Below, piece by piece: positions 10,851-40,389 of a DNA stretch of 64,000 nucleotides. Where the stretch lies: positions 3,424,001 through 3,488,000 of the forward strand of contig CM000208.1 in NCBI GenBank assembly GCA_000002445.1. Direction: 5' to 3'. The notes below the pieces were generated by a model. It was not told the origin of the DNA. It made no database searches and was given only the letters and a program-made list of their open reading frames with translations. Position numbers and translations under genes: made by a program. Source of the DNA: Trypanosoma brucei. Its lineage: Eukaryota. Numbering within the stretch: position 1 is the stretch's first letter; each line of letters opens with the position of its first letter.

Positions 10851-13800
10851 TTAAATGAAGACTGGGCGCTGAGCGAAATCAGAGACAGTGTATTCCTCAC
10901 TACCCCCATCATCACTGCTGTGTCCAGTGACACGGTTGTCAGCTCTTTGATTTGTATACCCCGCTTTTTGATTTTGCAGAAGGCCCTCCACCTTAGTTGG
11001 GGTTGTCGGATAAGTTGCTCCCATTTCCACAGGAAATGCTCGTTCAGTAGACTGTGGGCCCTGACTGCGCTGCAGTAGCAACCGCTGTTGTTGTTGTTGC
11101 TGTTTTAGTATCTCCGCGTAGATACTACATGCATCCACAGAAAGATGCTCCGCCACAGAAGAAGAGTCCGCGCGAGAAGATACGGAAGATATGCAGCCTT
11201 CAGTGTTTTGGGGATGCACCAGCCGAGACAGCACATCAGCGCCATTTAGTCCCCTGTCGTCGTCAGAGTTTTGCGAGTTAGCACCTGAATCAACGTCTCC
11301 TCTCGCACTAACTTCTCCCTTACCGACGGCATCACCTATCGTGGAACCTTCACCACTTCGTACGGATATTCTACCCCCACCACTGCGACTAAGATTACCG
11401 GTTGATATATCGTGAAATGGCTCAATGACGGTACGATATAGTGCAGGCCCCCCTGTACTTCCTGTAGGAGCACGGTAGTGGTGGCTGGCAAGTTCTGTTG
11501 CAGAAGCGGGAGGGTTGGACGTATCACAAGTTTCCCTGTGCTCGTCGTCACGTGCCTCGGAAATTTTTTTGCGAGTCAACTGCTTCGTGAGTAGCCGCTG
11601 CCTCTGCATACTGACTGCGGCGTCAAAAAGGGATTGTAGGGACATATTTTGCAGCCACTCGTTGCGGATCTCATCGCCCTTTCCAGTGGAATCATCACGG
11701 GTTTCGCCATCCTCCACCGCGTACGGATCACAACCTTGTTGGTACAAAGACCCCGGCAAACGAGGTCCCCGTGACCCGTGCCTTGGGTGCCAGGAGCTAC
11801 CCCCTGAAGAGAAACTTGCCTCTCTCCCGTTCGAAGGTTTGACTCCTCGACAAGCTTCATCAGTGCTTTCCCGATTGCTACTGCTACCGGTTATATCATA
11901 GCGCTTCCCAGAGTCCGTATGCAACGAAACAGGGGTGACATCGCACGGCAACGTACCCTCAGTTCCATTAATTGCTGAGTGTTCGTTGCGGCGGAACTTA
12001 CGCGGGTCGTAAGCTAAAGGTTCTTCTTTCTTCGCCGCCTCCATGCGCAAACGCACCGCATTCTCACGAAGAAGATCTGACCGCGTCTTCTTCATTTGAG
12101 GTGGTTGCCTGTTCCTCCCGTTTTCAGGGGATAGATGCCGCGAACATGAATCAAGGACCGGTGTGTCAGATTCCAAACTAACCGCCATCGACTCCCGTAA
12201 CCGGCGCTCTTGTTCTTGCAACCTCTTTTTTTCTTTCACTAGACGCTGCATCACCGCTTTCTGCTGCTCCAATGTCTCACGTCGCTTCAGCGCCGTGGCA
12301 CCGTACGCTACATCCTTTTGCCGCTTCTCCAAGCGCCGCTTTGCAGTCTTAATGACGTCAACTAAGCGATCGCGTTCCTGGCGAAGTCGCATGGCCTCTT
12401 GGCGTTGATCCTTAATGAGTTGACGGTGCTGTTTTAGTTGGGTTGTCAACTCTGTGACGGTGTTGTGGAGGCCCCTCTGGCGATCCTGCGAGCGAATCAA
12501 AGACTGCTCTAATGCCTGGGCTTGCTGAAGAAGTTTTTCCCGAGTAGAGTTCACCGTAGTAAATGTAGAACTTGAAGCAGATGAAAAATTGTTGTTACAG
12601 TGCTGGTGGCTACTGCTGTTGCTCTGCCCCTCGTTAGTGTCATTCGACTGCCGGCTGTGGTCATTCACTGTTGAAGGACTATCTAACGGGCTAGATGTGC
12701 GTAGTCGATGCTCAAGCATGGGGGTGAGTGAAGCCACAGCTTGGAGATATCGAACACTGGACCGACCGTCGTCAAAACTACTGCTGTTAGACACATCCCT
12801 CGTAGGAGCAAGAGGAGGGCCTGCAGCAGCCGTTGGCGACAAGGGGTTGAATGCTCGACAATATCTTTCCTTACCAGCAAGCTTCTCGCTGCCGTTAAGA
12901 ATCCCGTTCATTGTTTCTACACCACCACACTTGTTGGTGCTGCTGCCCCTCCTAACACCAGTTTGGTTCACTCCAGTGCGACGCTCAAGGCTGTCCACCC
13001 TCTGATAATCTCTTTTAGAGCTATCGCTACTACGTTTATCCGACCGCGGCGAAACAACCGGTACCACGCCACGTGACACAAACTCGGAATGTCGATTATA
13101 TTGCGAGTCGGCTGCCTCTGCAGCGTCTGGTGTCGCAACAGCCGTATCCCTTTCGGTCGGCGACCTAAGTGGGCGTCTATCTTCAAAGGTTTCGCGCTTC
13201 GGAGTCAAAAGTGGACGACGCTTATCCGTTGGGGATTTCAGTGGAGATGGTGGCAACGGTGGCGATGTCAGATGACAATGACCGGAGACCGCTGCCGTAG
13301 TTGGGGACTGAATAAGTTGACTTCTGGCGACATCCGCCCCCCTTTTCCCCAAACAGGATCGCCCCTGTGGGGGCTCCGACGGTGCGACGCCATCGACATT
13401 CAGCTGAGATGTGGGGTCACGCCAAACTGTCATGTCCTTTTCCTCCACAGGAGAAAGTGTTCGCGGTGGACTGATGTAGTGCCTCGGTGACATCATGGGG
13501 TCACGGGTTTTTTCAATGCTATTACCATTTTCAATAAAATTTTGAAGGACGTCACGTGCGGCCTCGGTAAACAGCCGCTTCATTCTGCCCACCTCTATGC
13601 CATTGTCTATTTCAATAACCTGAGGCAATACTTGGTGCAGTAGCGATGCATACAGCACCAATCGTAACCCTCCTCCACCGCTGTTTCTGATGTTGCCTTC
13701 CGCAGAACTCTGCTGTCGCTCTACAGAAGCCTCCATTTCATGCAAATGATGTTGTACAATTTCTTTCACAAGTTCCTTAAGGCCGTGCCGTGTCTCCTCC

Positions 13801-16014: not shown

Positions 16015-16016
<2 letters not shown>

Positions 16017-16053
<37 letters not shown>

Positions 16054-16569: not shown

Positions 16570-19500
16570 TCACGCAGCCCCACCAATGGCTGTTTCCTTT
16601 TCCTCCTTGCGCCGCTCAGTCCGGGCATCATTTCCACCTTCGCTGCAGTTTCCCTGGGAATCCACGTTAACAACACGTGGAAGAAATCCGTCATTCTCAA
16701 TATCGCATTGATATGCTTCGCTAATTCCTGCACTCTGAGGTGCTGTAAGCGGTACATCATCGCCAAATTCCACATCACTAACTTCCATAATAGCTTCGTC
16801 CAAATCTTCTTCGTCGTCGAGGTCGGACTCGTCGTCCCGCGACTCCCCTTCCTTATTTTCCTCGCACCCATCCACCGACGAGGTGGGGAAATTTAATGAA
16901 ACTACGTGCACCCCAATGGCTCCCTGGTTTGGGGACGTGGCCCGTGTTGCTTCACTGCGGGAAAGACGCTCACATCTATCCACCAAGTTCCTCACTTCCT
17001 CTGCGCTCAGTAGCGATGGCTCCCGTTCCTTAACATTTTTTTTGTCACTGTTGTTTCCTGCACTCGCTTTTTTTGCCTGTGAAGGATTGTTATAAAGAAG
17101 ACCGCGCAGATGATCGAGCATTGAGAGGTAGCCATCTAGCGAAGCCTCAGGGAGCACCTGAACAGAGCCGGTGCTTCCCTGCCTACCCTCATCATCACGA
17201 GAGGCGCGCGGGTCGTCTTCCAAACCTATAAAACCGCCCGTCTCTTCCGCATCTGAGTCTTTCTGTAAACCATATGGTTTGCTTTGGCACCCTTCCCCAG
17301 CCGCACAGGCGACGCTAGTTGGTGAAATAATACACGGAATACTAGTTAGGGATGGAAGCTCATCCGAGCAGCGCTCCCTTCCTCTTGTTTCTGCATCAAA
17401 AGCAGTTGTGTCACTTCCACTGCTTGACGTCACTGGTGAATGCTTTTTCGACACGCTAGTACCGACAAGAACCTCAAGGGTACTTGGGATACAGGGTCGT
17501 GGCCCATCAACCTTCTGAAAAACAGCCATCTCATCCGCGTGTCCGGGAAGCTTCATGTTATTGTGAAATCCCATACCCACTAAGTGTGAGCACAGAGCGC
17601 GATATGGAGCTTTCCCGTTTGCATTTTTATCCACAAAATTTCGCCACTGCTGCGCCACATCAGGTGGATCGGCAGTTACATCATTGATTGATGGAAGCAC
17701 TGGAGTGCTATCACCTTCGAAGGCCGCTTTCTTGTTCAAGGCCTCCTCGCTCGTTGGGGCAACGCCATAGCATATGTCAACTAGGATGGGTGTGTGAATG
17801 GATTCTTCGAAGGCAGGAGAACGGCCGTTGTCTGGCTTTTTCTCACGCGTGGGGGCCGGTTGGTGCACCTTCGGATTTATTTTTGCAACAACCATAGACG
17901 GTGCGGCATCAGGAGGTGTAGCCTGAGGCACATGATTGTTCCGGCTGGCCCCACCACGCTGAAACGTTTGCCTCCTCTGGCCATGTGGTGCTGCAGACGG
18001 GCTAACGGGCATCGAGAAAACAGCGGGGGACAGGCACTGTCCTTGAGCTGCCACACCCGCACGACACTGAAGTGGTGCCAGAAGCATCGGCTGACCGATT
18101 TCATTCTTTGAACTATCGTCGTCCCCATTTATTTCTTGGCTCTTGGAACAACCGCCGCGCTGGTTGGACGGGAGGAAGCCATCTTTTCTTCGATACAAAA
18201 TAGGCGAACCCCCTTTATGCCTGGCGTTGACGAACTCTGGTGCGCAGCTCTTAGACCGACCGCAAACCACATCATTTCTCTTTGCCGGATGCAAATTGAA
18301 ATCCCCCTTTAGTTGTGACAAAAGGGCATGTTGTTTTGCCTGCTGTTGAAGCTCACGTCGCACCTTCACATCAGCCGGCAGGTCTTCGAGGTTTAAACGC
18401 GAAAATGGTGAAGTCACCCTCAGAGCGGGTAAATCCTTGGTAGCCGACGCACCTTCCGCGACAAAGCCTGATGCCGTGGTTGGCCTAACATGACATTTAT
18501 TGACGGCAGCTTCCTTCTCGTTTAAGGGTGAATTCTTAGAAGGCGTTACCTCCATCGATGGGGAAATTGATGGGGCACTATTACGACGACCCAGCGTACC
18601 GTTCGCAAACGGCGACCGCAAATCCCCTTCCGCAGAACCCAGTTTTTTTATGTCGTGGTGGTTGACTATAGCCTTTGCAACTGGGCTCTCAGCACGCGGG
18701 GTGGGGAGAAGCGGGGCAGAAACTATGTTTGTTAGGGGCTGTTGTTTTAACTGCCGCCGCAGCGGTTGCTGTTTTTGGAAGACCTGGTCTGCTGTCGGTA
18801 TTACCAGTGGACACGGCTCCTTTGGTCTCCCAAGAGGATGTCGGTGAACCGATGGATCTGCGGTTCGCTTACCCTTCTGCGGCTTTGGTTCAAGCTGCCC
18901 AGCATTCAGCTGAGAAGGTTCCGCACGTCTTGGGTTATCGTTCAGGTTAACAACATCTCTGTACACAACAACTCGAGGAGAGGCAGCAACACCGCGTGCA
19001 GCCGAGTCGCCATCGCCCCTTGGTTGCATCCCTGGTTGCTGATACAATTGCCGCACCCTTTGGTTATCTGGAATTCCAGGGGAATCCACTGGTGGCGCTG
19101 GCCCCTTCAGAGCTTCACGTAGGGCCGCATTGTGATAATTGGGACAATAAGGTGATGCAATAGCGTTTCCATTTCGCCCTCCAGAAACTGGGTTAGATTC
19201 CTTAGGGGCGGCTCTAACACAACGGGGATCACGACCGAACACTGGATTCTGCTGCTGTGGGTACTGGGCACCGCGAGGTGGCGATTGTAAAACTTTGTAT
19301 GGTGATGGGTACGCATTTCTGTCGCCCACCGCGGGTTGACCTGGGTTAAGGGGCTTCATTTCCGCAACAGGTTTCTGTGCGTGTTGCTTCTGCTCCACGC
19401 CCTTACGTACTTTTTCACCCCGCGCTATCCTATTTTGCTGTTCAATCACCTTCAAAAGCTCTTGCTTTCTAAGTTGCCTTCGCCGCTCCAACCTCTCTTT

Positions 19501-21090
19501 CTGTTCCTTCTGTCGCTGCAGGTATTCCTCCTGCTTGCGCTTCATATAGGCATGAATGGTGTTGAGCGTCTTAGGATCCACATCCTTGGCATAACGCTCT
19601 ACGATAGCATTGATACGTTTGATCCTGTCCTCAAACCCTTCACCCTGTTTGCAGTCGGGGCCTCGTTTCGCTTCGTTATTTTTTTGCATCTGGCGCTGCG
19701 CGTCCGGCTGCGGTTGATGTGGCTGCCGCTGTTTTTCCTGTAGTTGTTGAAAGTGCTGCTGCATCAGCTGTTTGTAAGGGTTTGCCACATACTGGGGTTG
19801 GCACGGAACCTGCTGAAAATGGGGCCTTTGATATGGGGAAAAGGGTAAAGCCTGCTTGATATCAGCTAGCGGACGCTTGCACTGCGGTGGAGCCTCCCGC
19901 CGAAAGATTTCTAACCTGCCATGATCTGCCGCCGCATGCGCCGCGTTAGGTTTCGGAGCAAGTAGACCGGCATGGTCTGCATGCCTCTGCGCAGCTGGAT
20001 CAACAGCTGGTGGTCCAGCAGCCATCGCCGCCCGTGGAGAAACATGTTGCTGTCGCACAAAACACTCTGGTGCCTGTTGCTGTTGTTGGCGATTGTGCTG
20101 TCCTGCTAGGGCCATGGCTGCCATTTTACCCGGTGACATCTCAGGCGGGTGGGGCTCCTGACGGTGGCGTTGCTCCCCCCGAGGAGTCTCCTGTGGGCGT
20201 GGAGTAACGGGCTCACAGCACGGAATGTTTTCCGCTGCAGCATCGTACTCAATTATGTCTTTGAGACGTATCCTACACTGCGTGGCTAGCATGAGATCCT
20301 CTTCTAACCGCTCAAGCGACCGCTGCACAATCGGAAAGGCGAGCATCTGTCTAATACTTGGCCGCCGTGCCGGGTCCTTCTGGAGGCACCAGTCGACCAT
20401 CTTACGGAATTCGCGTGAAAAATGCGATGGCAGAGGATTGTACGTCCCCCTCACTATGCGTTGCATGAGCTGTTGCATGCTGTTCCCGTCGAAAGGGTGC
20501 CGACCTGTGGCCAGCTCGTAGAGAAGCACGCCGAGTGCCCACACATCAGATTTATTGTTGTACGGTTTGTTCTTGCAGATTTCCGGTGAAAAGTAGTACG
20601 GGGTGCCACAAACAGTGCTTGCCATACCCATTGTGTTTCGCAACACTGTGGCAATCCCAAAGTCACCCAACTTCACGGACCCGTTTTTCATAAGAAATAC
20701 ATTCATGGTTTTGATGTCCCGGTGGAGAATGTGCCGGGAATGCAAGTACTCCATGGCCAGGCAGACTTGGGAATAGTAATACAATATTCTGCTCTCGTTC
20801 ATGGGGCCGCGCTTTATTTTACCGTGTAGGTCTCCATCATCGCAATACTCCATCACAATATACAGGTTATTTCGGTTCTCGAAATGCTCCACGTAGCGAA
20901 CAATGTTAGGGTGGTTGAGTTTCTGGAGCATACGGCACTCCTGTCGAGCCTCCGTTCGCTCCTTTTCGTTCAACTTCCCAAGGAATACCTCCTTGATGAC
21001 GAAGAGTGCATTATCGCTTCTCCGCTTGATGAGAATGGCACTACCGAAGCTTCCTTTACCAAGGACGCGTACCTTTGTGTATTTCTCCAT
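16570..21090 (-). CDS. NIMA-related (NEK family) Ser/Thr protein kinase with a roughly 1200-aa Gln/Pro-rich disordered C-terminal extension
   Basis: N-terminus MEKYTKVRVLGKGSFGSAILIKRRSDNALFVIKEV (Gly loop and VAIK-like Lys). HRDIKTMNVF is the catalytic loop. DFGIA is the DFG motif. GTPYYFSPE is the APE-like activation segment typical of NEKs. The kinase domain spans about the first 270 aa. The rest is low-complexity Q/P/R-rich. Confidence 0.85.
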   Translation of the reverse strand: MEKYTKVRVLGKGSFGSAILIKRRSDNALFVIKEVFLGKLNEKERTEARQECRMLQKLNHPNIVRYVEHFENRNNLYIVMEYCDDGDLHGKIKRGPMNESRILYYYSQVCLAMEYLHSRHILHRDIKTMNVFLMKNGSVKLGDFGIATVLRNTMGMASTVCGTPYYFSPEICKNKPYNNKSDVWALGVLLYELATGRHPFDGNSMQQLMQRIVRGTYNPLPSHFSREFRKMVDWCLQKDPARRPSIRQMLAFPIVQRSLERLEEDLMLATQCRIRLKDIIEYDAAAENIPCCEPVTPRPQETPRGEQRHRQEPHPPEMSPGKMAAMALAGQHNRQQQQQAPECFVRQQHVSPRAAMAAGPPAVDPAAQRHADHAGLLAPKPNAAHAAADHGRLEIFRREAPPQCKRPLADIKQALPFSPYQRPHFQQVPCQPQYVANPYKQLMQQHFQQLQEKQRQPHQPQPDAQRQMQKNNEAKRGPDCKQGEGFEDRIKRINAIVERYAKDVDPKTLNTIHAYMKRKQEEYLQRQKEQKERLERRRQLRKQELLKVIEQQNRIARGEKVRKGVEQKQHAQKPVAEMKPLNPGQPAVGDRNAYPSPYKVLQSPPRGAQYPQQQNPVFGRDPRCVRAAPKESNPVSGGRNGNAIASPYCPNYHNAALREALKGPAPPVDSPGIPDNQRVRQLYQQPGMQPRGDGDSAARGVAASPRVVVYRDVVNLNDNPRRAEPSQLNAGQLEPKPQKGKRTADPSVHRHPLGRPKEPCPLVIPTADQVFQKQQPLRRQLKQQPLTNIVSAPLLPTPRAESPVAKAIVNHHDIKKLGSAEGDLRSPFANGTLGRRNSAPSISPSMEVTPSKNSPLNEKEAAVNKCHVRPTTASGFVAEGASATKDLPALRVTSPFSRLNLEDLPADVKVRRELQQQAKQHALLSQLKGDFNLHPAKRNDVVCGRSKSCAPEFVNARHKGGSPILYRRKDGFLPSNQRGGCSKSQEINGDDDSSKNEIGQPMLLAPLQCRAGVAAQGQCLSPAVFSMPVSPSAAPHGQRRQTFQRGGASRNNHVPQATPPDAAPSMVVAKINPKVHQPAPTREKKPDNGRSPAFEESIHTPILVDICYGVAPTSEEALNKKAAFEGDSTPVLPSINDVTADPPDVAQQWRNFVDKNANGKAPYRALCSHLVGMGFHNNMKLPGHADEMAVFQKVDGPRPCIPSTLEVLVGTSVSKKHSPVTSSSGSDTTAFDAETRGRERCSDELPSLTSIPCIISPTSVACAAGEGCQSKPYGLQKDSDAEETGGFIGLEDDPRASRDDEGRQGSTGSVQVLPEASLDGYLSMLDHLRGLLYNNPSQAKKASAGNNSDKKNVKEREPSLLSAEEVRNLVDRCERLSRSEATRATSPNQGAIGVHVVSLNFPTSSVDGCEENKEGESRDDESDLDDEEDLDEAIMEVSDVEFGDDVPLTAPQSAGISEAYQCDIENDGFLPRVVNVDSQGNCSEGGNDARTERRKEEKETAIGGAA

Positions 21091-21146
21091 GAAGTATGAT
21101 TAACGTAGGACACACCTCCACTCCTTTCCTGAGTCCCCTTTATCCA

Positions 21147-21160
21147 CCTCGTTCCCAAAA
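21147..21160 (-). promoter_or_regulatory. Candidate polypyrimidine tract (sense strand) guiding the spliced-leader acceptor for the NEK kinase mRNA
   Basis: The + strand aaaaaagaaaaaaa equals ttttttcttttttt on the gene strand, 55-70 nt upstream of the ATG at 21090. Several AG dinucleotides lie between it and the ATG. Kinetoplastid trans-splicing uses such tracts. Inference only. Confidence 0.35.
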
Positions 21161-21210
21161 AAGAAAAAAACGTATCCTCCTCACGTCCGCTGTCTGTAAC
21201 GTAAATACAA

Positions 21211-21233
21211 ATATATATATATATATATATATA
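21211..21233. repeat. (AT)n microsatellite in the region upstream of the NEK gene
   Basis: Direct reading: atatatatatatatatatatata. Confidence 0.95.

Positions 21234-30685: not shown

Positions 30686-30686
<1 letters not shown>
29499..30686 (-). CDS. Hypothetical tail-anchored membrane protein (C-terminal TM helix), start codon uncertain
   Basis: ORF on the polycistron strand. C-terminal hydrophobic helix VKLFLAIVALSLIFFCVAVALV is followed by only 6 residues. The ORF-track N-terminus MRAHTHTHTHTH is just the (GT)n microsatellite read in frame. The start is placed at the next Met (MSTEPHNEH, 30686), and a later Met (MDTRIPIA) is also possible. Confidence 0.45.

Positions 30687-30688
<2 letters not shown>

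Positions 30689-30716
<28 letters not shown>
30689..30716. repeat. (GT)n microsatellite, about 14 units, at or overlapping the 5' end of the 29499..30686 gene
   Basis: Direct reading: tgtgtgtgtgtgtgtgtgtgtgtgtgtg immediately upstream (sense orientation) of the MSTEPH Met. It creates the artefactual MRAHTHTHTH N-terminus in the ORF track. Confidence 0.95.
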
Positions 30717-30719
<3 letters not shown>

Positions 30720-31274
30720 CCGCATGACAATTCATACGTCGTTCAAGGAAAGAAAATGCAAAAAAGAGAGAAAAAGAGGGTGGATGGAATAGTTAGCAAG
30801 ATACAGAGGCTAACAACCGTCGATGGTATGAAACCCCGTCATGAAAGCTACCACAAATCATCTGTACACCTACCTTTCATCACCGCTATTTAAATTTGAA
30901 TTGCTGCTTCTTTTTGCTTCTCTTTTTTGTTTTGCATTCTCTCGTTGGAAATCATGTACAGTTCCATAATATTACATACGTGAGGTAAGTGCCGACGTTT
31001 AATGTGCTGGCCAATCCACACTGTGTTAACCATACATGAAAGCATCCCATCACATGCACAAAATTAGTAGGAACATCTAAAACAGTAGGAAGACTGTCGG
31101 CAGGAATGTTGTTGCTTCCACCTTTTAAGGAGGAAAAAAAAAAGACAAAATCCGGCTCAAAACAAAAAAAAAGAAAAAAAAACTTCCACCGTATGTGAAG
31201 CGAAGTTGCAGCAATCCGCCTCACCTTTACTTCACTCACTTAGGTACTTAACGTAACGTAGCAACACAGACCCG

Positions 31275-34200
31275 TCATATCCCACTGGGTTTGCTTCCAC
31301 CTCCTCGTGTAGTACAAACAGCAGGGAGGGGCGGAAGTGGACGACGAAGCATGCGACGAAGTTCGTTCATAAGAATGCGTGCATTCGTACCCGGTGGCTC
31401 AACAACCATTTGCGGGGCCTGGTCCGCTCGAGCTCCTCCACGACGCTTCGGTCGTACGGGCCCCCGCTGCTTCGACTGAGGTGGCGGTTTTGGAGTCTCT
31501 GGTTTTTGCACAGGCTCTTTACGCTCGACATCTTCTTTCAAGGCTTCGGATTGGGCGTCCTCTATTTCAACTTTCTTCCGCCGCTTCGTCCTTTTTCCTT
31601 CCAAAGCTACACCTGTCATGAAAACGGCATCCTGTGGCAGTGCGCCCTCGTCCGAAGAAGTCTCCGTCTCGTCGTCTGTTGTCTCCCTTCTCTTCTCCAC
31701 CTCATGCGGTTGCGGGTCGGCCTCCTTTACGTCATCATCATCATCCGTAGGCACAAGTACTTGAGCCATTTGCCTTTTCTCTTTTTCTCTTGTCGTGCGG
31801 TAGGGCCGTTTGGAGTTTTTATGAGATGAGGTTCCGGCAAGACGATGCACATTCATGTATTCCTCGTGCTTAGGCACGGTGACAAGTCCCGTTCGCGGAT
31901 GCACCATCGAGGATACAACTACATCACCCGACTGCTGTGACCGCTTCTTTCCATAGAATTGCGCTGCAGTTCGTTTTGGCATGACAGTATCGTCGAAAAC
32001 AAACTCAACGACACGGAAGTTCGTTAAAGAGGGGAGAGCGGTTGTAGTGGTAGCTTTGCCCTTGTCAAAGGAGTGAGGCATAGGGGCATCACCATACCAA
32101 CAAATGTCACCTGCTAGGATACAACTGTCCTCCGACGGACTGAAGGCGGACTGACTCTGTGTACTTTCCCCATATATCTGTGATTGATGTACACTACTAG
32201 TGTAAAAGCACTCCATGCCAACATCACCATCCTCAGGAGTCTCCGCATTTTCCCCAGAGTCCTCCATATCACCGTATCTGTATGGTTGTGAGCTCGCACC
32301 ATCTTTTTTTGTCTCGCTATTCCAAACACTAAAATCTTGATTTCCTCCTTCCGATCGCTCATACATTGGCATTTCTTCGCTTTCCGTGTCATTTCTACGC
32401 ATTCTTCCTCTCCTCACATTACTTTGAAATTGTGACGATCCAATGTCATCCAACGTATCGGTACCGCACGGACTAAAAGAACCGTGCCCTCTCTGACTGC
32501 GGCTGCTACCTTGAAGGCCCATTTGTTTCCAATAGCGGCTTAGCACTGTTTGAACGAAATGCGCCCGCACCGCCCCTTGTTCCTTCTTGTTTGCTGCTAT
32601 AGGGTTTCCTATAAGTATTACCCGGGTTAGAGAATGCTGAAGCTCACTAAGCGCAACCACATCCTGCGCTCTCTCCACACGGTTATGACACAGCCCAATC
32701 ACTTCAATGCTGGGAAAGCAGAGCCCATGACCATCTTTCACCGATATGGGAGGGACACGGCGCAGCTTGTTGTGGTTTAAATTGACCTCGATCAGGGCTG
32801 GCATCGTTGACAAAGCTCTAAATACATTTTCACCATCACGAAACATATTCCCCTCAAGTGCGAAATGAGTAACGCTAGTAAGTCCTGCAAGGTCATCTGG
32901 CAGCTTACATAATTTGTTTCCACTGAGATCCAATCGCTCTAATGAAGGAAAGTAACTCAAATGTAATATGTCTGACGGTGATATTCTGTTGAAAGAAAGA
33001 TTCAACGTATGAAGATTGGGCAATAAGACATCATGTGTGCTGCATTCCACGATTCGAGAAATGTGATCTAAAACTTTCCCGGGTGACCTTTCACGGACAT
33101 AGCCGCTAAATGTATTCCTTCCAGTGGTGACATTAGCAGGGGGTGGTTCGAATTCCTGACTACTAAATTTCCCAGAACCCGCGTCTGTGGAAGACGTTTC
33201 CGCCAGATTCTCCCTCGCGTAATAAGCTGCAGCGCTCCTAATTGATGAGTTTTCGGGCCCCGAACTATCGATCCCCTCACCACGCTGAGTACTTCCGGGA
33301 CCCATCTTCATCGAACTATCGTTGCCCATGCTTCTCTTCAAGGAGTTTTGCACCACCTCAGCCAACCCCGCCAGAGAAGTAATTTGGTTATAAGCGAGGT
33401 GCAGAACTTCAAGACCCGTGAGTACCAAAAGCTGCTCCAAAAGCAGCTTGTTCTCGCTCACATCAAGGAAAGAAAGATTACCAAAGTGGGCCATGTCATC
33501 TGATATAACACCAACCAGACTCGATCCCTGTAGCGTTGCCCCCTTCACTGCATCTGGCTCCGGGACACCGCCGGCGCACAGTAGCAGGAAACCATCAAGC
33601 ATCATATTAGGGGGGGTCACATTTGTTCTAATCTGCTGTGGTCTAAGCTTACCTTCCATAGCAGCGTGAAATACACGAGCATCCTCCTCATCATCTTTCA
33701 TATCGGATATGAGCAGCAACCGCTGGGACAAGACACGTTCCCGTTTAAGATGTTCGCTGGGTGCTGGTGGCAATCTGAAGTAACTACGCAGGGATCGCTC
33801 TATTGCACTGCGACCCTTCAGGATACGAAACCCCTGAGGATGAACCACACGGGCATCGAGGCGGGGTTGCGGCCGCGCTGACTGGCGAAATAAACCCCAT
33901 AAACTGTCGGCTTTTGGCGCCGGCTGCGGTAAAAAATCCTCGGGCACAACCCCACCCACACCGTTCGATGCTCTACCGCCCCTGCGAGCACCTGAGAGTA
34001 GTGAACCCATGGTGGGTCCATTGAACTCAGTGTTGTGCGGAAACTGTACGTTGCACCGCTTTGCCTTTGGAATAACGTATTGCAAAAATTCACCTGTGCG
34101 TAACAAGACACATTCATTCCCAAATGTTTGACCTCGTCCAAAGGAGTCCCAAAACCGGTGGTGACTGTATGTTGTCTCTCTTGAACTTTCCTCCCGTTGA

Positions 34201-34313
34201 GAATCACCATTTACTGAAATATCCCCTTCATCCTCCACTACCACTGATGGCGATCCCGGTGCAGGTTGGTGTGTGTCATCCACACCTTGCGGTGGATCTG
34301 TAGTCGCTTCCAT
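31275..34313 (-). CDS. Leucine-rich-repeat protein (1012 aa), possibly axonemal or flagellar
   Basis: Central LRR block (LEVLHLAYNQITSLAGL..., LPNLHTLNLSFNRISPSDILHLSYFPSLERLDLSGNKLCKLPDDLAGLTSVTHFALEGNMF..., LIEVNLNHNKLRRVPP). Disordered acidic and basic C-terminal half. Same strand as its neighbours. Confidence 0.6.
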   Translation of the reverse strand: MEATTDPPQGVDDTHQPAPGSPSVVVEDEGDISVNGDSQREESSRETTYSHHRFWDSFGRGQTFGNECVLLRTGEFLQYVIPKAKRCNVQFPHNTEFNGPTMGSLLSGARRGGRASNGVGGVVPEDFLPQPAPKADSLWGLFRQSARPQPRLDARVVHPQGFRILKGRSAIERSLRSYFRLPPAPSEHLKRERVLSQRLLLISDMKDDEEDARVFHAAMEGKLRPQQIRTNVTPPNMMLDGFLLLCAGGVPEPDAVKGATLQGSSLVGVISDDMAHFGNLSFLDVSENKLLLEQLLVLTGLEVLHLAYNQITSLAGLAEVVQNSLKRSMGNDSSMKMGPGSTQRGEGIDSSGPENSSIRSAAAYYARENLAETSSTDAGSGKFSSQEFEPPPANVTTGRNTFSGYVRERSPGKVLDHISRIVECSTHDVLLPNLHTLNLSFNRISPSDILHLSYFPSLERLDLSGNKLCKLPDDLAGLTSVTHFALEGNMFRDGENVFRALSTMPALIEVNLNHNKLRRVPPISVKDGHGLCFPSIEVIGLCHNRVERAQDVVALSELQHSLTRVILIGNPIAANKKEQGAVRAHFVQTVLSRYWKQMGLQGSSRSQRGHGSFSPCGTDTLDDIGSSQFQSNVRRGRMRRNDTESEEMPMYERSEGGNQDFSVWNSETKKDGASSQPYRYGDMEDSGENAETPEDGDVGMECFYTSSVHQSQIYGESTQSQSAFSPSEDSCILAGDICWYGDAPMPHSFDKGKATTTTALPSLTNFRVVEFVFDDTVMPKRTAAQFYGKKRSQQSGDVVVSSMVHPRTGLVTVPKHEEYMNVHRLAGTSSHKNSKRPYRTTREKEKRQMAQVLVPTDDDDDVKEADPQPHEVEKRRETTDDETETSSDEGALPQDAVFMTGVALEGKRTKRRKKVEIEDAQSEALKEDVERKEPVQKPETPKPPPQSKQRGPVRPKRRGGARADQAPQMVVEPPGTNARILMNELRRMLRRPLPPLPAVCTTRGGGSKPSGI

Positions 34314-35298: not shown

Positions 35299-38200
35299 TT
35301 AGATGCCCTCCATCTGACGACCTCCTTTAACACCGTCGTCCTTTGTATTATCGGTGATGTTGTCACCGCTGACAAATTCTGATAACCTCCTTCCATTGCT
35401 TTTACACACTGACTCAAGAAGATCACGTTCGACGAAGAACTGCGGTTCTGCGCCGTGCTTTACCATACTATCAATGACTCGCATCGCATCCGTTGACGCC
35501 TTCATGTTCTCATGATAGTGCCTTACTAGCAAGGCGAAGATGTCACCAATGCGAATGGAAGATGTTATGTCCGCATGGTCCTTGTGGCTCGGTCGGCTTC
35601 GCTTAACAAGATCAGAGCAGACTGCAATGAATTCCTTCGCCTGCTCCTCTCCCTTGCCGCTGTCAGCAAGAAGTTTCACCGCTTTTACCGCCTGTGCCAC
35701 GATATCACGGCGGACGCGCAACCCCTCCATCTTTCCTGTAATGTTAACATCACACATCGCATCTCGGTTACGCTCCACTTGGCCAATACACTCATCCAAG
35801 GCACACCATGCATCGTAGTAGTTCCGGTTTTCATCGATTTGCAACTGGGCGTACGAGTCTATATAAGAAATGAGGTTTGTGAACGCTTTTGAACGCGTAT
35901 AAAACAGCACAATATGTTTGTGAATGTTTGCGTCGGTGTGCCAGTTCTGTGACTGCAGGAAATTACCGGCGAGAGTGTAGATCTCCGTACTTCGTGAGTG
36001 GTTCGCGAAGAAAATAACCTTCTTTACGTCACCGCCGCGCATAAGCATTTTCATGGCCTTCACCCGCTCCCCTAATTGCGTATATTTTCTGCACGCAAGG
36101 TTCCAGTTGCCCTGATCCCTCGCAATACCAGCGATCTGCCGCTCCAATTCAGTCTTTTGATCATCCGAAAGCTGGCGCCTCTTCGCTTCAGCGGTGATGG
36201 CATCAGCCATTTCGTCGGTGAGGCCAACACCACGCTCCACACAAAGAGTGAGCGCAGAGGGGTATTCTCTCGCAAAAATATACATTTCTGCTGCTTTGGT
36301 GTAGTGGCCACTCTCTACAAAGTGAGAAGCCATTTGAAGAAAAACCTCTGCATCCTTTTCGGCGTTGAGAGTAGAGCTTATACGGTGCATAGCGTCATAC
36401 TGTTTCCCCTTAATGCACACGTCGATCGCCTTTTGTATGTCTCCTATACGATGATACAGATCCACTGACATTTCGTACACACCGTTATGTTCAAGGAATG
36501 CGGCACAGTCAAGCATTAGATGCGTGTCCTCACTGTTTTGAGCAATCGTTAACAACTCGCTGTGCCGCTCGTGCGACTTGGCCACTTTGGCAGCTGCCCG
36601 CCACGCACCAGCGTGTTGATAATATTTCAGCGCAGATGTTACGTCACCGTTACGTTCGTAGTGCTTGCCAACAAAGTACGCTGCACCAACTGGTTCGATG
36701 GATTGATTTGGCGATGACTGCATCAGCGGGGTCCTGGAACTCTCAGCTTCGCTGCGCCTCTTTTTAATCTCATTGTCTACAATATCAATGGCCTCCTGTG
36801 TTTTTGGTGGTGACTCGTTGAAAAGGAGTCGCACGGTGTTGAAGACATCCCCAGCGAGAGTGTAAAAGTTCGTTGCCTCGCTGAATTTCTTTCGACGCTC
36901 AGCCTGCCGCGCCCACCAATGCAGGAGCTCAGGGTTGTGCGCAAAGAGCTTCTGCAAGATGGGCTGCACTTGGTTGTCGTCATGACCTCTATCATCGCTT
37001 TTCGGATTTCCCCCGGCGCTTGCCGCTCGTACCTCTCCGTCACCTGCAATACCAACACTTTTTGGGTCGGTGAGACTGCTGGCGGGATTCGCTGGTGCTT
37101 CTGCCTCCGCGTTTGACCTGCCTTTGTCAACCGTTGCAACCTCCGCCGATTCTCTCTTCTTCTCAGGCGGTGTCACCAAAAGACGGAGATCAGAGAGGCG
37201 ACCGTTCTGGAAGTACAAACGTACAACGTCCGTGTCAAGGCACCTTGCATTGCAATACCACATCACCGCCGCATCAAAGTTGGAGAAGGACTCCATAAAC
37301 TGGGCGTACTTGTACGCGACTGGGTACACGCGAATGCGGTCGTGCTCACGTGCGTGACGTTGCGCCTGCTCAAACTTTCCACAAGCAATGAAGAGATCGG
37401 TAATCAAGTCGAACCGTTTTGCTTTTCGCAGTAGTTCCTCACATTCCCTCACAAGACCGAGGCTGCAAGCAAGTGTGGCAACCTGTACCTCCTTTTCACC
37501 AGGGTAGTTCGTTCGAGCAACACGAAGGGCGCTTGCAGCAACACCATCTTGCATTTGCGCCAAGCAAACACTAGCAACGTCCAATCGACCGGAGGCAACG
37601 CACATCTTTGCGAGGCTCTGCCAAACGGTGGCAGTCTTAATCGTCTTAACACATCGGTAGGCCTCATCCATATTCCCGACTGTTGAGTAATAGCTAAATT
37701 TCATGAGAGCCTCCAACACTGCCGCGTCCTTTTCAGTCTTCAATCCCTCAAAGTCCCGAAGCCGCTTCTGTTCAATCATGTAGTCCTCCGGATTGCCAGG
37801 GTCGCCGTTAATGCGAACCGAAGTAAGTAAGAAGTCAGGGATCGTTAGGCCAACCAGACATATGTGATATCGCTTCAGTTCCACGGAGTTGTGCACCACA
37901 AGACCTCTGTTGGTTGCGAAAAGTGTTACAAGGTTGTGCGAGCGGTGGGCAAGTGGGTTCACTGCGCTGAAGCCATTTTCAGCGTCCTCAGCGGCCGATT
38001 TGCCTTTTGCGTCCGCAAAGTTCTCCAGATCAGGCATCGCGCCATTAGTTGCCTCTTTGCTCTTAGATTCGGTCGGTTGAGATGTCCTTTTCGGAGAACG
38101 CACACCGCTTTCCCTGTGTTCTGGTGGGCTACAAGTGTCCCTGCCATCGACGTTCCCTTGAGGTCCCGTGGGTTTTTGTTCATCAGGCTGGGAAACGCCC

Positions 38201-40389
38201 TTCAACTGATGCGTTTCGCAGGCCAGTAAAAGGTATCCGGGCTCGCCAAGGGAGTTGCCATTCGGCTCAGGAGTGTTCCAGTATACAGCATGTGGAATTT
38301 CCATCCGTTCCATGAAATCATACGAAAACATCAGATCGGTATCAGCATCATACACCCAAACACGAGTGTCCGGCTGGTCGTTTGAGACGCACCGAGCCAT
38401 TAAGGCCACACGGCGACCTTCAGCATTAACTTTGATACTTGTCACAACCAAATCGTTTCCAAGCTTCGGAAGGAGCCGAGGAGGACCCAAGGGCGTCACC
38501 TCATTACTGTTCACAATGGCTAACCGCATTGCATTCTCAGACGATAGCGCCACGACAACATCTGACATCACATCAACTAATGTTGGTACACCCTCAGCTT
38601 CCGTAAATGCAATCTGCCCTATCATAATCATTTGGAAACTGGAGAACACAATCCGATGGGTGTCCCTCACGTAAAAGATTCCAGACTGGTGAATAGCGAA
38701 TGCCGGGTTCTTGGATGGGACGGAGCTAGTCAGTGTCGCCGTAGAGGTAGCCTCGTTGACGGTGTATAGGTCAATTTGATATCCGTTCCAAAGGCCGATG
38801 ATAGGAAAGGCGATGGACACACCGTATATCTTGCTGCTGCTCTTTAGTAAGCATTGGCAGCCGGTAACACTTTCAACCACCGCCACCTCCATCGAAATTT
38901 GTGTAGCAGCAGCAACACCATCCCATGCGCGTTTCCGAACTGTTTCCCGTAGCATCTGAAGTTTTCCGTTGGAAAGCGTAACATATATGTAGTTATTTCC
39001 ACTGAAACAGAGTCGCTCCACACGGTCCTCTACCTTGACAACCGTCAGCAGTTCCCACTCAGCAGCTGGGTCACCATTGCTCTCGAAAGCACCCGCTTTC
39101 TCTGTACCTTTATTGAACGCATTGGAGGAAGCTGCGGAACCACTTCTCATTCCTACGTCAAACGCACTCACTCCCATGGCATCGTACGGGCTGCTACTCC
39201 CCTGGCAAACAAAGGAAGGTTTCTGGAATACGGCAACTGATCCCTCAGCCGTTGCCATCACGAGGAGTCCCTTTTTCGTCAACGTCGCAATGTGTACGAC
39301 GTGCGCTGATGGAGCCGATGGATGCATTACAACGTACATTCTATCACTTTGCACATTGAAAAAACGCACCCGGTCATCCCCACATCCAAACACGAGTACA
39401 CCGGCAGAAACCCATTCCATCGCTAACGGGTTCCGATTGGCTGAGGCGCCAGGAACCGGTATGGAGAGCTTGCGCCTCATCACTAACTCCGCAACAATGG
39501 TGGGGGTAACACGGTACACAGTCAACATGTGCGTCAAACTGAGAGCAACAAGATAGCGCTCTACCGGGTCATACAAAACTGCGGCTGCAGTTTCTTCCAT
39601 GGTAGCGAGAGGAAACAGTTTCTGTTCCTCGCTGAGTCCAAAAATTGTCTTTCCCTTGCTGGACGCAAGTATGAACACGCACTCGCTTTCACCGTCATCA
39701 AGTCCAGCTGCCTGGAGATTTGCTGTTGTCGAGCCCTCAGCGTTTTCCCCCTCGGCTGCAGGTTTCCGCTGCTGGCGCTGCGACCGCTCCCGTGCCACCA
39801 CAGGCGGTGTCGACACACGCATGGCATGTGTTACGGTTTCGTCCGTAGTAACAGACCACTGTGGGGCCACTGTCGAATGCGAAGCTGGTTTCCCTGCCGA
39901 ATCAGCTTCGCCTTCAGCAGCTGTGGCGCCGCTATCGAATACCCACATAACCGCACGCTTTGAATCGGCCGCCGTCACTAGGTACGCGCCGGAACCGGAC
40001 CATTCACACGCTGTCACGGAGCCATTGACGTGCTGCACCCGGGCGCTTTCTACATCTACCGGTGGGTGTAATGTGAAGTTTGCATCCGTGGGTTTCGTGG
40101 GTGGAAGTGTCCAAACGAGCAACTTCCCACTTCTCGTCCCAATTGCCAAAACTGGCCGGGCTGGGTGCCATGCCAAGCAAGTCACATCATCAGTTGCCTT
40201 TGTACCATCCGACTGACTTTGCGGCTTGGGCGTGTGGTCGGCAACGCTTTCACCCTCCGAGTCTGTTACCAACACATGCAGCGGGTTTGTCCATACGGAA
40301 GCAACAAGTGGCAACTGGGGATGGGCCACAACGTGAGTTGCTGAGACGGCGCCACGACTCGCTATGTTATTCACGAAGTACAGAGACAT
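35299..40389 (-). CDS. IFT140: Intraflagellar transport protein IFT140 (IFT-A complex): N-terminal WD40 beta-propellers plus C-terminal TPR-like solenoid
   Basis: N-terminus MSLYFVNNI parallels human IFT140 'MALYYDHQI'. C-terminal segment RKYTQLGERVKAMKMLMRGGDVKKVIFFANHSRSTEIYTLAGNFLQSQNWHTDANIHKHIVLFYTRSKAFTNLISYIDSYAQLQIDENRNYYDA closely matches human IFT140 '[94 protein letters not shown]'. Upstream of it, WQSLAKMCVASGRLDVASVCLAQM parallels '[24 protein letters not shown]'. Confidence 0.85.
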   Translation of the reverse strand: MSLYFVNNIASRGAVSATHVVAHPQLPLVASVWTNPLHVLVTDSEGESVADHTPKPQSQSDGTKATDDVTCLAWHPARPVLAIGTRSGKLLVWTLPPTKPTDANFTLHPPVDVESARVQHVNGSVTACEWSGSGAYLVTAADSKRAVMWVFDSGATAAEGEADSAGKPASHSTVAPQWSVTTDETVTHAMRVSTPPVVARERSQRQQRKPAAEGENAEGSTTANLQAAGLDDGESECVFILASSKGKTIFGLSEEQKLFPLATMEETAAAVLYDPVERYLVALSLTHMLTVYRVTPTIVAELVMRRKLSIPVPGASANRNPLAMEWVSAGVLVFGCGDDRVRFFNVQSDRMYVVMHPSAPSAHVVHIATLTKKGLLVMATAEGSVAVFQKPSFVCQGSSSPYDAMGVSAFDVGMRSGSAASSNAFNKGTEKAGAFESNGDPAAEWELLTVVKVEDRVERLCFSGNNYIYVTLSNGKLQMLRETVRKRAWDGVAAATQISMEVAVVESVTGCQCLLKSSSKIYGVSIAFPIIGLWNGYQIDLYTVNEATSTATLTSSVPSKNPAFAIHQSGIFYVRDTHRIVFSSFQMIMIGQIAFTEAEGVPTLVDVMSDVVVALSSENAMRLAIVNSNEVTPLGPPRLLPKLGNDLVVTSIKVNAEGRRVALMARCVSNDQPDTRVWVYDADTDLMFSYDFMERMEIPHAVYWNTPEPNGNSLGEPGYLLLACETHQLKGVSQPDEQKPTGPQGNVDGRDTCSPPEHRESGVRSPKRTSQPTESKSKEATNGAMPDLENFADAKGKSAAEDAENGFSAVNPLAHRSHNLVTLFATNRGLVVHNSVELKRYHICLVGLTIPDFLLTSVRINGDPGNPEDYMIEQKRLRDFEGLKTEKDAAVLEALMKFSYYSTVGNMDEAYRCVKTIKTATVWQSLAKMCVASGRLDVASVCLAQMQDGVAASALRVARTNYPGEKEVQVATLACSLGLVRECEELLRKAKRFDLITDLFIACGKFEQAQRHAREHDRIRVYPVAYKYAQFMESFSNFDAAVMWYCNARCLDTDVVRLYFQNGRLSDLRLLVTPPEKKRESAEVATVDKGRSNAEAEAPANPASSLTDPKSVGIAGDGEVRAASAGGNPKSDDRGHDDNQVQPILQKLFAHNPELLHWWARQAERRKKFSEATNFYTLAGDVFNTVRLLFNESPPKTQEAIDIVDNEIKKRRSEAESSRTPLMQSSPNQSIEPVGAAYFVGKHYERNGDVTSALKYYQHAGAWRAAAKVAKSHERHSELLTIAQNSEDTHLMLDCAAFLEHNGVYEMSVDLYHRIGDIQKAIDVCIKGKQYDAMHRISSTLNAEKDAEVFLQMASHFVESGHYTKAAEMYIFAREYPSALTLCVERGVGLTDEMADAITAEAKRRQLSDDQKTELERQIAGIARDQGNWNLACRKYTQLGERVKAMKMLMRGGDVKKVIFFANHSRSTEIYTLAGNFLQSQNWHTDANIHKHIVLFYTRSKAFTNLISYIDSYAQLQIDENRNYYDAWCALDECIGQVERNRDAMCDVNITGKMEGLRVRRDIVAQAVKAVKLLADSGKGEEQAKEFIAVCSDLVKRSRPSHKDHADITSSIRIGDIFALLVRHYHENMKASTDAMRVIDSMVKHGAEPQFFVERDLLESVCKSNGRRLSEFVSGDNITDNTKDDGVKGGRQMEGI

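What the first reader, a model, noticed from the sequence alone, without database searches (positions are those of the whole stretch)
10851..40389. Four cilium/basal-body family signatures within 30 kb (LRR-coiled-coil, NEK, B9, LRR, IFT140)
IFT140 (IFT-A), a B9-domain protein (MKS transition-zone module) and a NEK kinase sit close together, and NEKs are classically ciliary or basal-body kinases. Two large LRR proteins are also present, one with a long coiled coil of VFL1/LRRCC1-like architecture. Polycistrons are not thought to be functionally ordered, and trypanosome genomes are rich in flagellar genes, so chance is the null. Still, the two uncharacterised LRR proteins, the tail-anchored protein (29499..30686) and the big glycoprotein between them become priority candidates for flagellar or transition-zone localisation.
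Basis: inference. Interest (0 to 1): 0.55.

Follow-up and report, generated by a model that had tools for sequence, protein, structure and literature searches.

The report
Known trypanosome flagellar genes sitting together
This stretch of Trypanosoma brucei chromosome 10 really does carry an unusually dense run of flagellum and basal-body genes, but every gene is already annotated, several already have published localisations, and a run this dense is expected about once or twice per genome by chance.

Summary
The window is T. brucei TREU927 chromosome 10, genes Tb927.10.14390 to 14530, all on the minus strand of one polycistron.

- 14460 is a TrypTag axoneme protein and is in flagellar proteomes.
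- NEK16 and 14480 are in the DRC1-APEX2 axonemal proximity proteome.
- 14500 is a TrypTag distal-axoneme protein.
- 14520 is basal-body protein BBP52.

So 7 of 11 consecutive genes have some flagellar evidence. Random-placement simulations at assumed base rates of 15-17% give about 1-3 such runs per genome. TrypTag itself reports that transcription units do not group by localisation. Linkage holds in Leishmania, as ordinary trypanosomatid synteny, but not in Diplonema or another euglenozoan contig.

LRR protein 14410, glycoprotein 14430 and tail-anchored 14450 have no flagellar evidence. The VFL1/LRRCC1 likeness of 14410 is not supported: it has a generic LRR and one coiled-coil-like segment of about 130 aa.

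Verdict: known genes, most likely juxtaposed by chance. Mild real clustering is not excluded.

The parts
10851..14726 (-). [quoted passage not shown] N-terminal LRR domain (about aa 1-270), one coiled-coil-like segment (aa 726-855), otherwise low-complexity. No flagellar evidence found.
   Evidence: Exact match to XP_827921. Pfam LRR_4/LRR_6. Composition scan. Sub-threshold >4C RNAi ratio of 0.74 and cell-cycle-regulated phosphorylation. Absent from the DRC1p proteome. Homologues only in kinetoplastids and unnamed environmental sequences.
16570..21090 (-). Tb927.10.14420, NEK16. NEK1-like kinase domain (aa 4-253) followed by a C-terminal region of about 1250 aa with no Pfam match.
   Evidence: Pfam Pkinase. 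Best PDB match is human NEK1, E=8e-85. Jones 2014 RNAi primers match window 20610-20629 and 20991-21010. In the DRC1-APEX2 axonemal proximity proteome, Table S1A. >4C ratio 0.28, not a hit.
24085..26847 (-). Tb927.10.14430, predicted type I membrane glycoprotein, 920 aa, found so far only in kinetoplastids and two unnamed environmental sequences. It lacks the N-terminal part present in its orthologues. No flagellar evidence.
27736..28596 (-). Tb927.10.14440, B9 domain-containing protein 1 (MKS transition-zone module by homology), 286 aa.
   Evidence: Pfam B9-C2, 120 bits. UniProt and TriTrypDB name it B9D1. 45% identical to the syntenic Leishmania B9 protein. >4C ratio 0.41, not a hit.
29499..30725 (-). 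Tb927.10.14450, tail-anchored hypothetical protein. 408 aa as annotated, or 395 aa from the second ATG at 30686. Fast-evolving. No flagellar evidence.
   Evidence: Single C-terminal hydrophobic segment at aa 379-397. No Pfam family. Only 23% identity over 112 aa to the positional Leishmania orthologue. Only a decoy row in the APEX2 raw data.
31275..34313 (-). [quoted passage not shown] Named homologues only in Euglenozoa, apart from generic LRR hits. Flagellar (axoneme) by tagging and proteomics. Protein abundance class G2&M.
   Evidence: Pfam LRR_4/LRR_8 at aa 432-490. TrypTag source data list it under axoneme, cytoplasm and endocytic. DRC1p proteome Table S1B, so also in prior flagellar proteomes. 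Orthologues in Trypanosoma, Phytomonas, Leishmania and Diplonema. Only generic LRR hits in the PDB.
35299..40389 (-). Tb927.10.14470, IFT140 (IFT-A subunit), 1696 aa.
   Evidence: Four IFT140-specific Pfam domains. Identifier given in PMC8141408. >4C RNAi hit, ratio 1.79 against a threshold of 1.117. DRC1p proteome Table S1B.
42634..45231 (-). In the axonemal proximity proteome. Weak BART-like hit.
   Evidence: DRC1p Table S1A. >4C ratio 0.81, sub-threshold, and cell-cycle-regulated phosphorylation. ARL2_Bind_BART E=0.021, below the Pfam cutoff.
47157..48419 (-). Tb927.10.14490, hypothetical Cys-motif protein, 420 aa. Possible diverged tandem paralogue of 14500. No localisation data found.
   Evidence: Two colinear short motifs shared with 14500. 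mRNA peak at G2M.
50026..51039 (-). Tb927.10.14500, hypothetical protein, 337 aa. TrypTag flagellar subdomain class 'Distal Strong'.
   Evidence: TrypTag source data. mRNA peak at G2M.
55244..56644 (-). Tb927.10.14520, basal body protein TbBBP52, 466 aa, 51.6 kDa.
   Evidence: Scored 'BB' in a TbPLK BioID screen. Named TbBBP52. TriTrypDB product 'Basal body protein'. Molecular weight.

Best explanation
This is an ordinary segment of one polycistronic transcription unit on T. brucei TREU927 chromosome 10, covering Tb927.10.14390 to 14530. Several independently acting flagellum and basal-body genes happen to lie close together in it.

What each gene does:
- IFT140 is an IFT-A subunit for intraflagellar transport.
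- B9D1 belongs, by homology, to the MKS module of the transition zone.
- NEK16 is a NEK1-like kinase found near the axoneme.
- 14460 is an LRR protein, known only from Euglenozoa, that localises to the axoneme.
- 14500 is a distal-axoneme protein.
- BBP52 is a basal-body protein.
- 14480 is a hypothetical protein found near the axoneme by proximity labelling.

These genes are interspersed with unrelated genes: FACT subunit POB3, SEY1/RHD3, proteasome subunit RPN8 and membrane proteins of unknown function. It is established knowledge of trypanosome gene expression that the genes are co-transcribed like everything else in the unit and regulated individually after transcription. I infer that proximity has no functional role. 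It reflects the high share of flagellar genes in this genome (roughly 10-17%) and the general conservation of gene order among trypanosomatids.
For: - Identity of every gene: exact protein matches, primer matches and the TriTrypDB product list in gene order.
- Domains.
- Localisation and proteomics.
- Chance expectation under random placement: 3 of 7 genes occurs 70-106 times per random genome at p=0.10-0.12, and 4 of 7 occurs about 5 times even at p=0.08, the exact DRC1p base rate.
- For the fullest count, 7 of 11 genes, random genomes give 1.2-2.6 runs at p=0.15-0.17, with P(at least one) of 0.69-0.94.
[quoted passage not shown] - No shared regulation is visible. mRNA peaks, protein classes and RNAi phenotypes differ among the genes, and only IFT140 is a >4C hit.
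- The gene order IFT140-LRR-TA-B9-TM is kept in Leishmania. The 14460 homologue is not next to IFT140 or B9 in Diplonema or in another euglenozoan contig.
Against: - The local density is about four times the assumed base rate. The single-window probability is 3e-4 to 7e-4 for 7 of 11 genes, which places it among the densest few runs expected in a genome.
- Using one uniform label, the DRC1p proteome, 4 of the 7 consecutive genes 14420-14480 are members (P=0.0012), and at least 8 of 44 genes in the wider region are (P=0.02).
- The base rates for the combined labels are my estimates, not measured values.
- I could not run a true permutation on the real genome-wide labels.
- IFT52 and IFT80 are adjacent about 50 genes away, where 0.05 adjacent IFT pairs are expected by chance. 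This hints that some local clustering of flagellar genes may exist.
Confidence: 0.75

Rival explanations
1. There is a weak but real neighbourhood of flagellar genes. Selection, or a shared position-dependent expression effect within the transcription unit, keeps a subset of flagellum-assembly genes together. The uncharacterised neighbours would then be enriched for flagellar function.
For: - 7 of 11 consecutive genes have flagellar or basal-body evidence.
- Single-window P is about 3e-4 to 7e-4.
- DRC1p members are about twofold enriched over 44 neighbouring genes.
- The core order is conserved between Trypanosoma and Leishmania.
- Several of the genes show late-cell-cycle signals: 14460 protein class G2&M, 14490 and 14500 mRNA peak at G2M, and regulated phosphorylation of 14410, 14470 and 14480.
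- From my own knowledge, unverified here: Kelly et al. 2012 reported position effects within trypanosome transcription units.
Against: - Window boundaries were chosen after seeing the data.
- Random genomes yield about 1-3 equal runs.
- TrypTag found no grouping by transcription unit.
- Trypanosomatid synteny is generally high, so conservation in Leishmania is uninformative.
- Linkage of the 14460 homologue is lost in Diplonema and in another euglenozoan.
- The cell-cycle annotations are heterogeneous and absent for B9D1, NEK16 and BBP52.
Confidence: 0.2
2. The 1291-aa LRR protein (14410) is the trypanosome VFL1/LRRCC1 orthologue and therefore a basal-body protein that sets centriole rotational asymmetry.
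For: - It has an N-terminal SDS22-type LRR domain followed by a coiled-coil segment.
- VFL1 is reported as conserved in T. brucei, with no gene identifier given in the accessible text.
- Knockdown gives a mildly raised >4C ratio of 0.74, and the protein carries cell-cycle-regulated phosphorylation.
Against: - The coiled coil is only about 130 aa of 1291.
- Sequence and profile searches return only kinetoplastid and unnamed environmental proteins or generic LRR hits, and no named LRRCC1 or VFL1.
- The structure model is low-confidence, with only generic LRR matches at TM<=0.3.
- It is not in the DRC1p proteome, and no main text in the held paper library mentions it.
Confidence: 0.1
3. The glycoprotein 14430 and the tail-anchored protein 14450, which flank B9D1, are lineage-specific membrane partners of the MKS transition-zone module, playing roles like Tectonic or the TMEM proteins.
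For: - They are immediately adjacent to B9D1, and the order is conserved in Leishmania.
- Their topologies (type I glycoprotein, tail anchor) are of the kind seen in MKS-module membrane proteins.
Against: - There is no Pfam match to Tectonic/DUF1619, meckelin or TMEM families, even at E<=10.
- The T. brucei glycoprotein has lost about 370-460 N-terminal residues that its orthologues keep.
- No proteomic or RNAi signal was found.
- Adjacency carries little information in trypanosome polycistrons.
Confidence: 0.07

Closest known systems
Trypanosomatid polycistronic transcription units (functionally unordered gene arrays)
   Same: All 15 genes lie on one strand with short intergenic regions. Flagellar genes are mixed with unrelated housekeeping genes: FACT POB3, SEY1 and proteasome RPN8. 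Gene order is conserved in Leishmania.
   Different: The local density of flagellar and basal-body genes, 7 of 11, is about four times the assumed genome average. That puts it in the upper tail of what random placement gives.
Bacterial operons and eukaryotic functional gene clusters (for example nematode operons or fungal metabolic clusters)
   Same: The genes are co-transcribed and several serve one organelle.
   Different: There is no evidence of shared regulation or a shared phenotype. The products belong to different sub-structures: IFT train, transition zone, axoneme and basal body. Unrelated genes are interspersed. Linkage is not kept outside trypanosomatids for the one gene tested.
Human NEK1 (ciliary and basal-body NEK kinase)
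   Same: The NEK16 kinase domain matches NEK1 far better than other NEKs or other kinases. Both have an N-terminal kinase domain followed by a C-terminal region of more than 1000 aa. NEK16 is labelled by an axonemal APEX2 bait.
   Different: The C-terminal 1250 aa have no recognisable domain and only one short coiled-coil-like segment. Knockdown gives no endoreduplication phenotype. Orthology to NEK1 was not tested by phylogeny.
VFL1 / LRRCC1 (basal-body LRR and coiled-coil protein)
   Same: The 1291-aa protein has an N-terminal LRR domain and a downstream coiled-coil segment.
   Different: The coiled coil covers only 10% of the protein. No sequence or profile link to a named LRRCC1 or VFL1 was found. 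No localisation data were found.

Membership tests
IFT140 (IFT-A subunit) | Two N-terminal beta-propellers followed by IFT140/IFT172-type TPR domains | tested here: met
   Beta-prop_IFT140_1st (80.6 bits), Beta-prop_IFT140_2nd (81.6), TPR_IF140-IFT172 (392) and TPR_IF140_C (53.6) are all above their Pfam cutoffs.
IFT140 (IFT-A subunit) | Loss of function gives a flagellar phenotype | tested here: met
   In the published genome-scale RNAi screen the >4C ratio is 1.79 against a threshold of 1.117. It is grouped there with the other IFT factors.
B9-domain proteins (MKS1, B9D1, B9D2) | B9-C2 domain | tested here: met
   PF07162 at 120.1 bits against a cutoff of 27, covering profile positions 2-165 of 166.
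B9-domain proteins (MKS1, B9D1, B9D2) | Assignment to the B9D1 paralogue rather than B9D2 or MKS1 | not tested
   Only the UniProt and TriTrypDB names say B9D1. No named B9D1 or B9D2 sequences were available for a reciprocal comparison, and there are no PDB relatives.
B9-domain proteins (MKS1, B9D1, B9D2) | Transition-zone localisation | not testable with these tools
   The transition-zone proteome paper (Dean et al. 2016) is not held. The identifier appears in no held main text.
NEK kinases | Kinase domain closest to NEK-family kinases | tested here: met
   Human NEK1 scores 288 bits, NEK2 187, NEK7 182 and PKA 161. It is classed as Other/NEK, NEK16, in the kinome screen.
NEK kinases | Ciliary or basal-body association of this particular member | tested here: inconclusive
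   It is in the DRC1-APEX2 proximity proteome, of which 75% of members carry a TrypTag flagellar term. There is no >4C phenotype and no tagging result was accessible.
VFL1 / LRRCC1 | N-terminal LRR domain | tested here: met
   LRR_4, LRR_6 and LRR_1 hits in aa 33-104. The model is confident only for aa 1-100. This feature is generic and not specific to the family.
VFL1 / LRRCC1 | Long C-terminal coiled coil making up much of the protein | tested here: not met
   There is one coiled-coil-like segment, aa 726-855, which is 10% of the length. The remainder is rich in Ser, Pro, Gly and Arg.
VFL1 / LRRCC1 | Sequence orthology to VFL1 or LRRCC1 | tested here: inconclusive
   The word-indexed search found only Trypanosoma proteins. 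The exhaustive profile search found kinetoplastid and unnamed environmental proteins. The PDB profile search gave only weak generic LRR hits. No named LRRCC1 sequence was available for a direct test.
Functional gene cluster (operon-like) | Density of same-function genes beyond genome-wide chance | tested here: inconclusive
   Simulations with assumed base rates give 1.2-2.6 equal runs per random genome at p=0.15-0.17, and 0.5 at p=0.13. A real-label permutation was not possible.
Functional gene cluster (operon-like) | Linkage conserved beyond background synteny | tested here: not met
   Linkage is kept in Leishmania and in an unidentified trypanosomatid. The 14460 homologues in Diplonema and in another euglenozoan contig are not next to IFT140 or B9. 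Only this one gene was tested.
Functional gene cluster (operon-like) | Shared regulation or shared phenotype | tested here: not met
   mRNA peaks, protein classes, phospho-regulation and RNAi profiles differ gene by gene. Only IFT140 passes the >4C threshold.
Tectonic / MKS-module membrane proteins (considered for 14430 and 14450) | Recognisable family domain (DUF1619, meckelin or TMEM families) | tested here: not met

The most novel reading that the evidence does not exclude
Tb927.10.14420 to 14520 is one of a small number of genuinely non-random flagellar gene neighbourhoods in trypanosomatid transcription units. Seven, possibly eight, of its 11 genes are flagellar. The neighbourhood would be maintained because position in the unit helps time expression to flagellum assembly late in the cell cycle. 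In that case the three uncharacterised genes inside it (14410, 14430, 14450) would be enriched for new basal-body or transition-zone components.
Probability: 0.15. Interest if true: 0.55.

Novelty: already known. Interest (0 to 1): 0.22.

Why it matters
If the clustering were real, it would contradict the working view that trypanosome polycistrons are functionally unordered. Guilt by association would then become a cheap way to find new flagellar and transition-zone proteins.

As it stands, the practical value is small. The genes are annotated and most already have public localisation or proteomic data. The remaining candidates (14410, 14430, 14450) can be checked in minutes on tryptag.org.

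Tried and rejected
- I first assumed from memory that IFT140 was Tb927.10.14980. That is IFT52; IFT140 is Tb927.10.14470.
- A literature search combining Tb927 with B9D1, MKS1 and tectonic returned only animal ciliopathy papers.
- The transition-zone proteome paper (Dean 2016) and the centriole phylogeny paper (Hodges 2010) are not held.
- A search for NEK16 found no trypanosome study.
- PDB sequence searches for the 1291-aa LRR protein, B9D1 and 14480 found nothing. For the 1012-aa LRR protein they found only generic LRR proteins such as SHOC2.
- The AFDB library was unavailable, so the model could not be compared with the predicted structures of Tectonic or LRRCC1.
- The exhaustive profile search with the 14410 LRR domain gave unnamed hits, and cluster look-ups added only one name, Leptomonas.
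- The Leishmania 303-aa gene upstream of IFT140 is not the orthologue of 14480.
- Whole-window tRNA, Rfam and tandem-repeat scans found nothing relevant.
- TrypTag's full localisation table is truncated in the held copy, so no TrypTag record could be read for 14410, 14420, 14430, 14440, 14450, 14470, 14480 or 14520.
Full report
**Where the window comes from.** All large ORFs are on the minus strand. Ten translated ORFs match proteins of Trypanosoma brucei brucei TREU927 exactly, on a 4.05-Mb contig that is chromosome 10.

Gene identifiers were fixed in three independent ways:
- The RNAi primers published for NEK16 (Tb927.10.14420) match window positions 20610-20629 and 20991-21010 exactly.
- IFT140 is given as Tb927.10.14470 in PMC8141408.
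- The genome-wide RNAi table of Marques et al. 2022 lists the TriTrypDB products in order.

That order is:

| Gene (Tb927.10.) | Product |
|---|---|
| 14390 | FACT subunit POB3 |
| 14400 | hypothetical |
| 14420 | NEK16 |
| 14430 | hypothetical |
| 14440 | B9 domain-containing protein 1 |
| 14450 | hypothetical |
| 14470 | IFT140 |
| 14480 | hypothetical |
| 14490 | hypothetical |
| 14500 | hypothetical |
| 14510 | RHD3/SEY1 |
| 14520 | basal body protein |
| 14530 | proteasome RPN8 |

My initial recollection that IFT140 was Tb927.10.14980 was wrong. That identifier is IFT52.

**Checking the observation.**
- LRR repeats in the 1291-aa and 1012-aa proteins.
- A protein kinase domain in the 1506-aa protein.
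- A B9-C2 domain, 120 bits, in the 286-aa protein.
- All four IFT140-specific domains in the 1696-aa protein.

The kinase domain is clearly NEK-type and closest to human NEK1: 288 bits, against 187 for NEK2 and about 160 for non-NEK kinases. The tail-anchored topology of 14450 and the type I glycoprotein topology of 14430 (18 sequons) are reproduced by a simple hydropathy scan.

One detail is overstated. The 'long coiled coil' of the 1291-aa protein is a single segment of about 130 aa (aa 726-855), and the rest of the protein is low-complexity.

**What published data say about each gene.**
- **IFT140** is a strong endoreduplication (>4C) hit in bloodstream-form RNAi, like most IFT genes. Its ratio is 1.79 against a threshold of 1.117.
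- **The 1012-aa LRR protein (14460)** is listed in TrypTag source data under axoneme, cytoplasm and endocytic, within a 'not G1' protein-abundance cluster. It is also in the DRC1-APEX2 axonemal proximity proteome, in the subset already seen in earlier flagellar proteomes.
- **NEK16 and 14480** are in the same 697-protein proximity proteome, in the subset new to flagellar proteomics. 75% of that proteome carries a TrypTag flagellar term.
- **14500** is in TrypTag's 'Distal Strong' flagellar subdomain list.
- **14520** is the basal-body protein TbBBP52.
- **B9D1** is a transition-zone protein by homology only. I could not reach the transition-zone proteome paper.
- **14410, 14430 and 14450** are absent from the DRC1p proteome. 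Only decoy rows appear for 14410 and 14450 in the raw APEX2 table. None passes the >4C threshold: 0.74, 0.26 and 0.49. No main text among about 8 million held papers mentions them.

**Is it more than chance?** Counting genes with any evidence, 7 of the 11 consecutive genes 14420-14520 are linked to the flagellum or basal body. By tagging or homology alone, the count is 5 of 9.

TrypTag covers 8,721 genes and reports 307 basal-body proteins. My estimate from the per-terminus tables is 450-550 axoneme proteins. From these I estimate base rates of about 10-13% for structural flagellar localisation and about 15-17% once proximity proteomes are added. These rates are estimates, not measured values.

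Random-placement simulations give the following:

| Run observed | Assumed base rate | Equal or denser runs per random genome |
|---|---|---|
| 3 of 7 genes | 0.10-0.12 | 70-106 |
| 5 of 9 genes | 0.10-0.13 | 3-10 |
| 7 of 11 genes | 0.15-0.17 | 1.2-2.6, P(at least one) 0.69-0.94 |

With one uniform label whose base rate is exact (DRC1p, 697 of 8,721 genes, or 8%), 4 of the 7 genes 14420-14480 are members. The single-window P is 0.0012, yet about 5 such runs are expected per random genome.

As a further check, I assumed roughly 46 'core module' ciliary genes (IFT, BBSome, MKS). The expected number of pairs lying within three genes of each other is then 0.7, so IFT140 and B9D1 three genes apart is unremarkable.

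The run is therefore dense, in the upper tail, but within what a genome-wide scan yields by chance. [quoted passage not shown]

**Synteny.** In Leishmania the order is IFT140, LRR, a 343-aa protein, B9, then a 1309-aa protein, the same as in T. brucei. B9D1 is 45% identical to the Leishmania B9 protein. The tail-anchored protein is only weakly similar to its positional counterpart. An unidentified trypanosomatid also has IFT140 next to the LRR gene.

This is ordinary trypanosomatid synteny. In Diplonema papillatum and in another euglenozoan contig, the homologue of 14460 has unrelated neighbours. The second contig happens to carry CFAP91 nearby, which shows how common ciliary genes are in such genomes.

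**The uncharacterised proteins.**
- **14410.** Homologues appear only in Trypanosoma by word-indexed search. The exhaustive profile search adds other kinetoplastids (for example Leptomonas) and unnamed environmental sequences. PDB profile hits are weak and generic. The AlphaFold model is confident only for the first 100 residues and matches generic LRR solenoids. Nothing links it specifically to VFL1/LRRCC1. VFL1 is said to be conserved in T. brucei, but the accessible text gives no identifier.
- **14460.** Homologues occur across Euglenozoa, including Diplonema, with no named orthologue elsewhere. It is absent from solved axoneme structures.

All of this is already in public annotation and datasets. 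The density is compatible with chance at genome scale. The three remaining candidates have no supporting evidence.

I put 0.75 on chance juxtaposition within an ordinary, syntenic polycistron and about 0.2 on mild real clustering. The decisive test is a permutation scan on the full TrypTag table, which I could not run because the held copy is truncated.

Noticed in passing
window 24085-26847 (-) and upstream to 27735: The T. brucei glycoprotein Tb927.10.14430 (920 aa) aligns only from its residue 89, to residues 462-1338 of the T. congolense orthologue (1348 aa) and from residue 356 of the L. donovani orthologue (1302 aa). The N-terminal 370-460 aa of the family are missing in T. brucei. tblastn finds no remnant between this gene and B9D1.
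   Followed up: partly
window 47157-48419 (-) and 50026-51039 (-): Tb927.10.14490 and 14500 share two colinear short motifs: an N-terminal CxCxxC and DRLxxLLxLExxxR. Both have a G2M mRNA peak. They may be diverged tandem paralogues. 14500 is a TrypTag 'Distal Strong' flagellar protein, so 14490 could be an eighth flagellar gene in the run.
   Followed up: partly
window 42634-45231 (-): Tb927.10.14480 has a weak, sub-threshold match to the ARL2-binding BART domain (E=0.021, aa 463-527). It is in the axonemal proximity proteome and has a raised but sub-threshold >4C RNAi ratio (0.81). BART-like proteins include ciliary ARL3 effectors (my own knowledge).
   Followed up: partly
window 58600-64000: More than 5 kb with no credible ORF on either strand, GC 0.29-0.32 and strong C-over-G skew on the plus strand. 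The sequence is low-complexity, with no tRNA or Rfam match and only two short tandem repeats. Presumably a very long UTR or intergenic region upstream of RPN8.
   Followed up: partly
window 21091-24084: A 3-kb stretch between NEK16 and 14430 has only short low-complexity ORFs. T. b. gambiense accession numbering skips one entry here (CBH16651), suggesting an extra annotated CDS in that strain.
   Followed up: no
window 30686-30725 (-): The annotated start of Tb927.10.14450 lies in a (CA)n microsatellite that encodes HTHTHTHTH.
   Followed up: no
outside the window (Tb927.10.14980 and 14990, about 50 genes away): IFT52 and IFT80 carry consecutive gene identifiers (14980, 14990) on the same chromosome, so I read them as adjacent. 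Among 22 IFT genes only 0.05 adjacent pairs are expected by chance, a hint that some local pairing of flagellar genes may exist.
   Followed up: partly
window (primer check); Jones et al. 2014 supplementary primer table: Row pTL7 is labelled Tb927.10.14400/14410/14420, but neither primer matches the window even with two mismatches. The label in that table is probably an error.
   Followed up: yes
L006:1355-3310 and 10001-11725: In an unidentified euglenozoan metagenome contig, the homologue of the 1012-aa LRR protein lies four genes from a CFAP91 gene. This illustrates how often ciliary genes are neighbours in these genomes.
   Followed up: no
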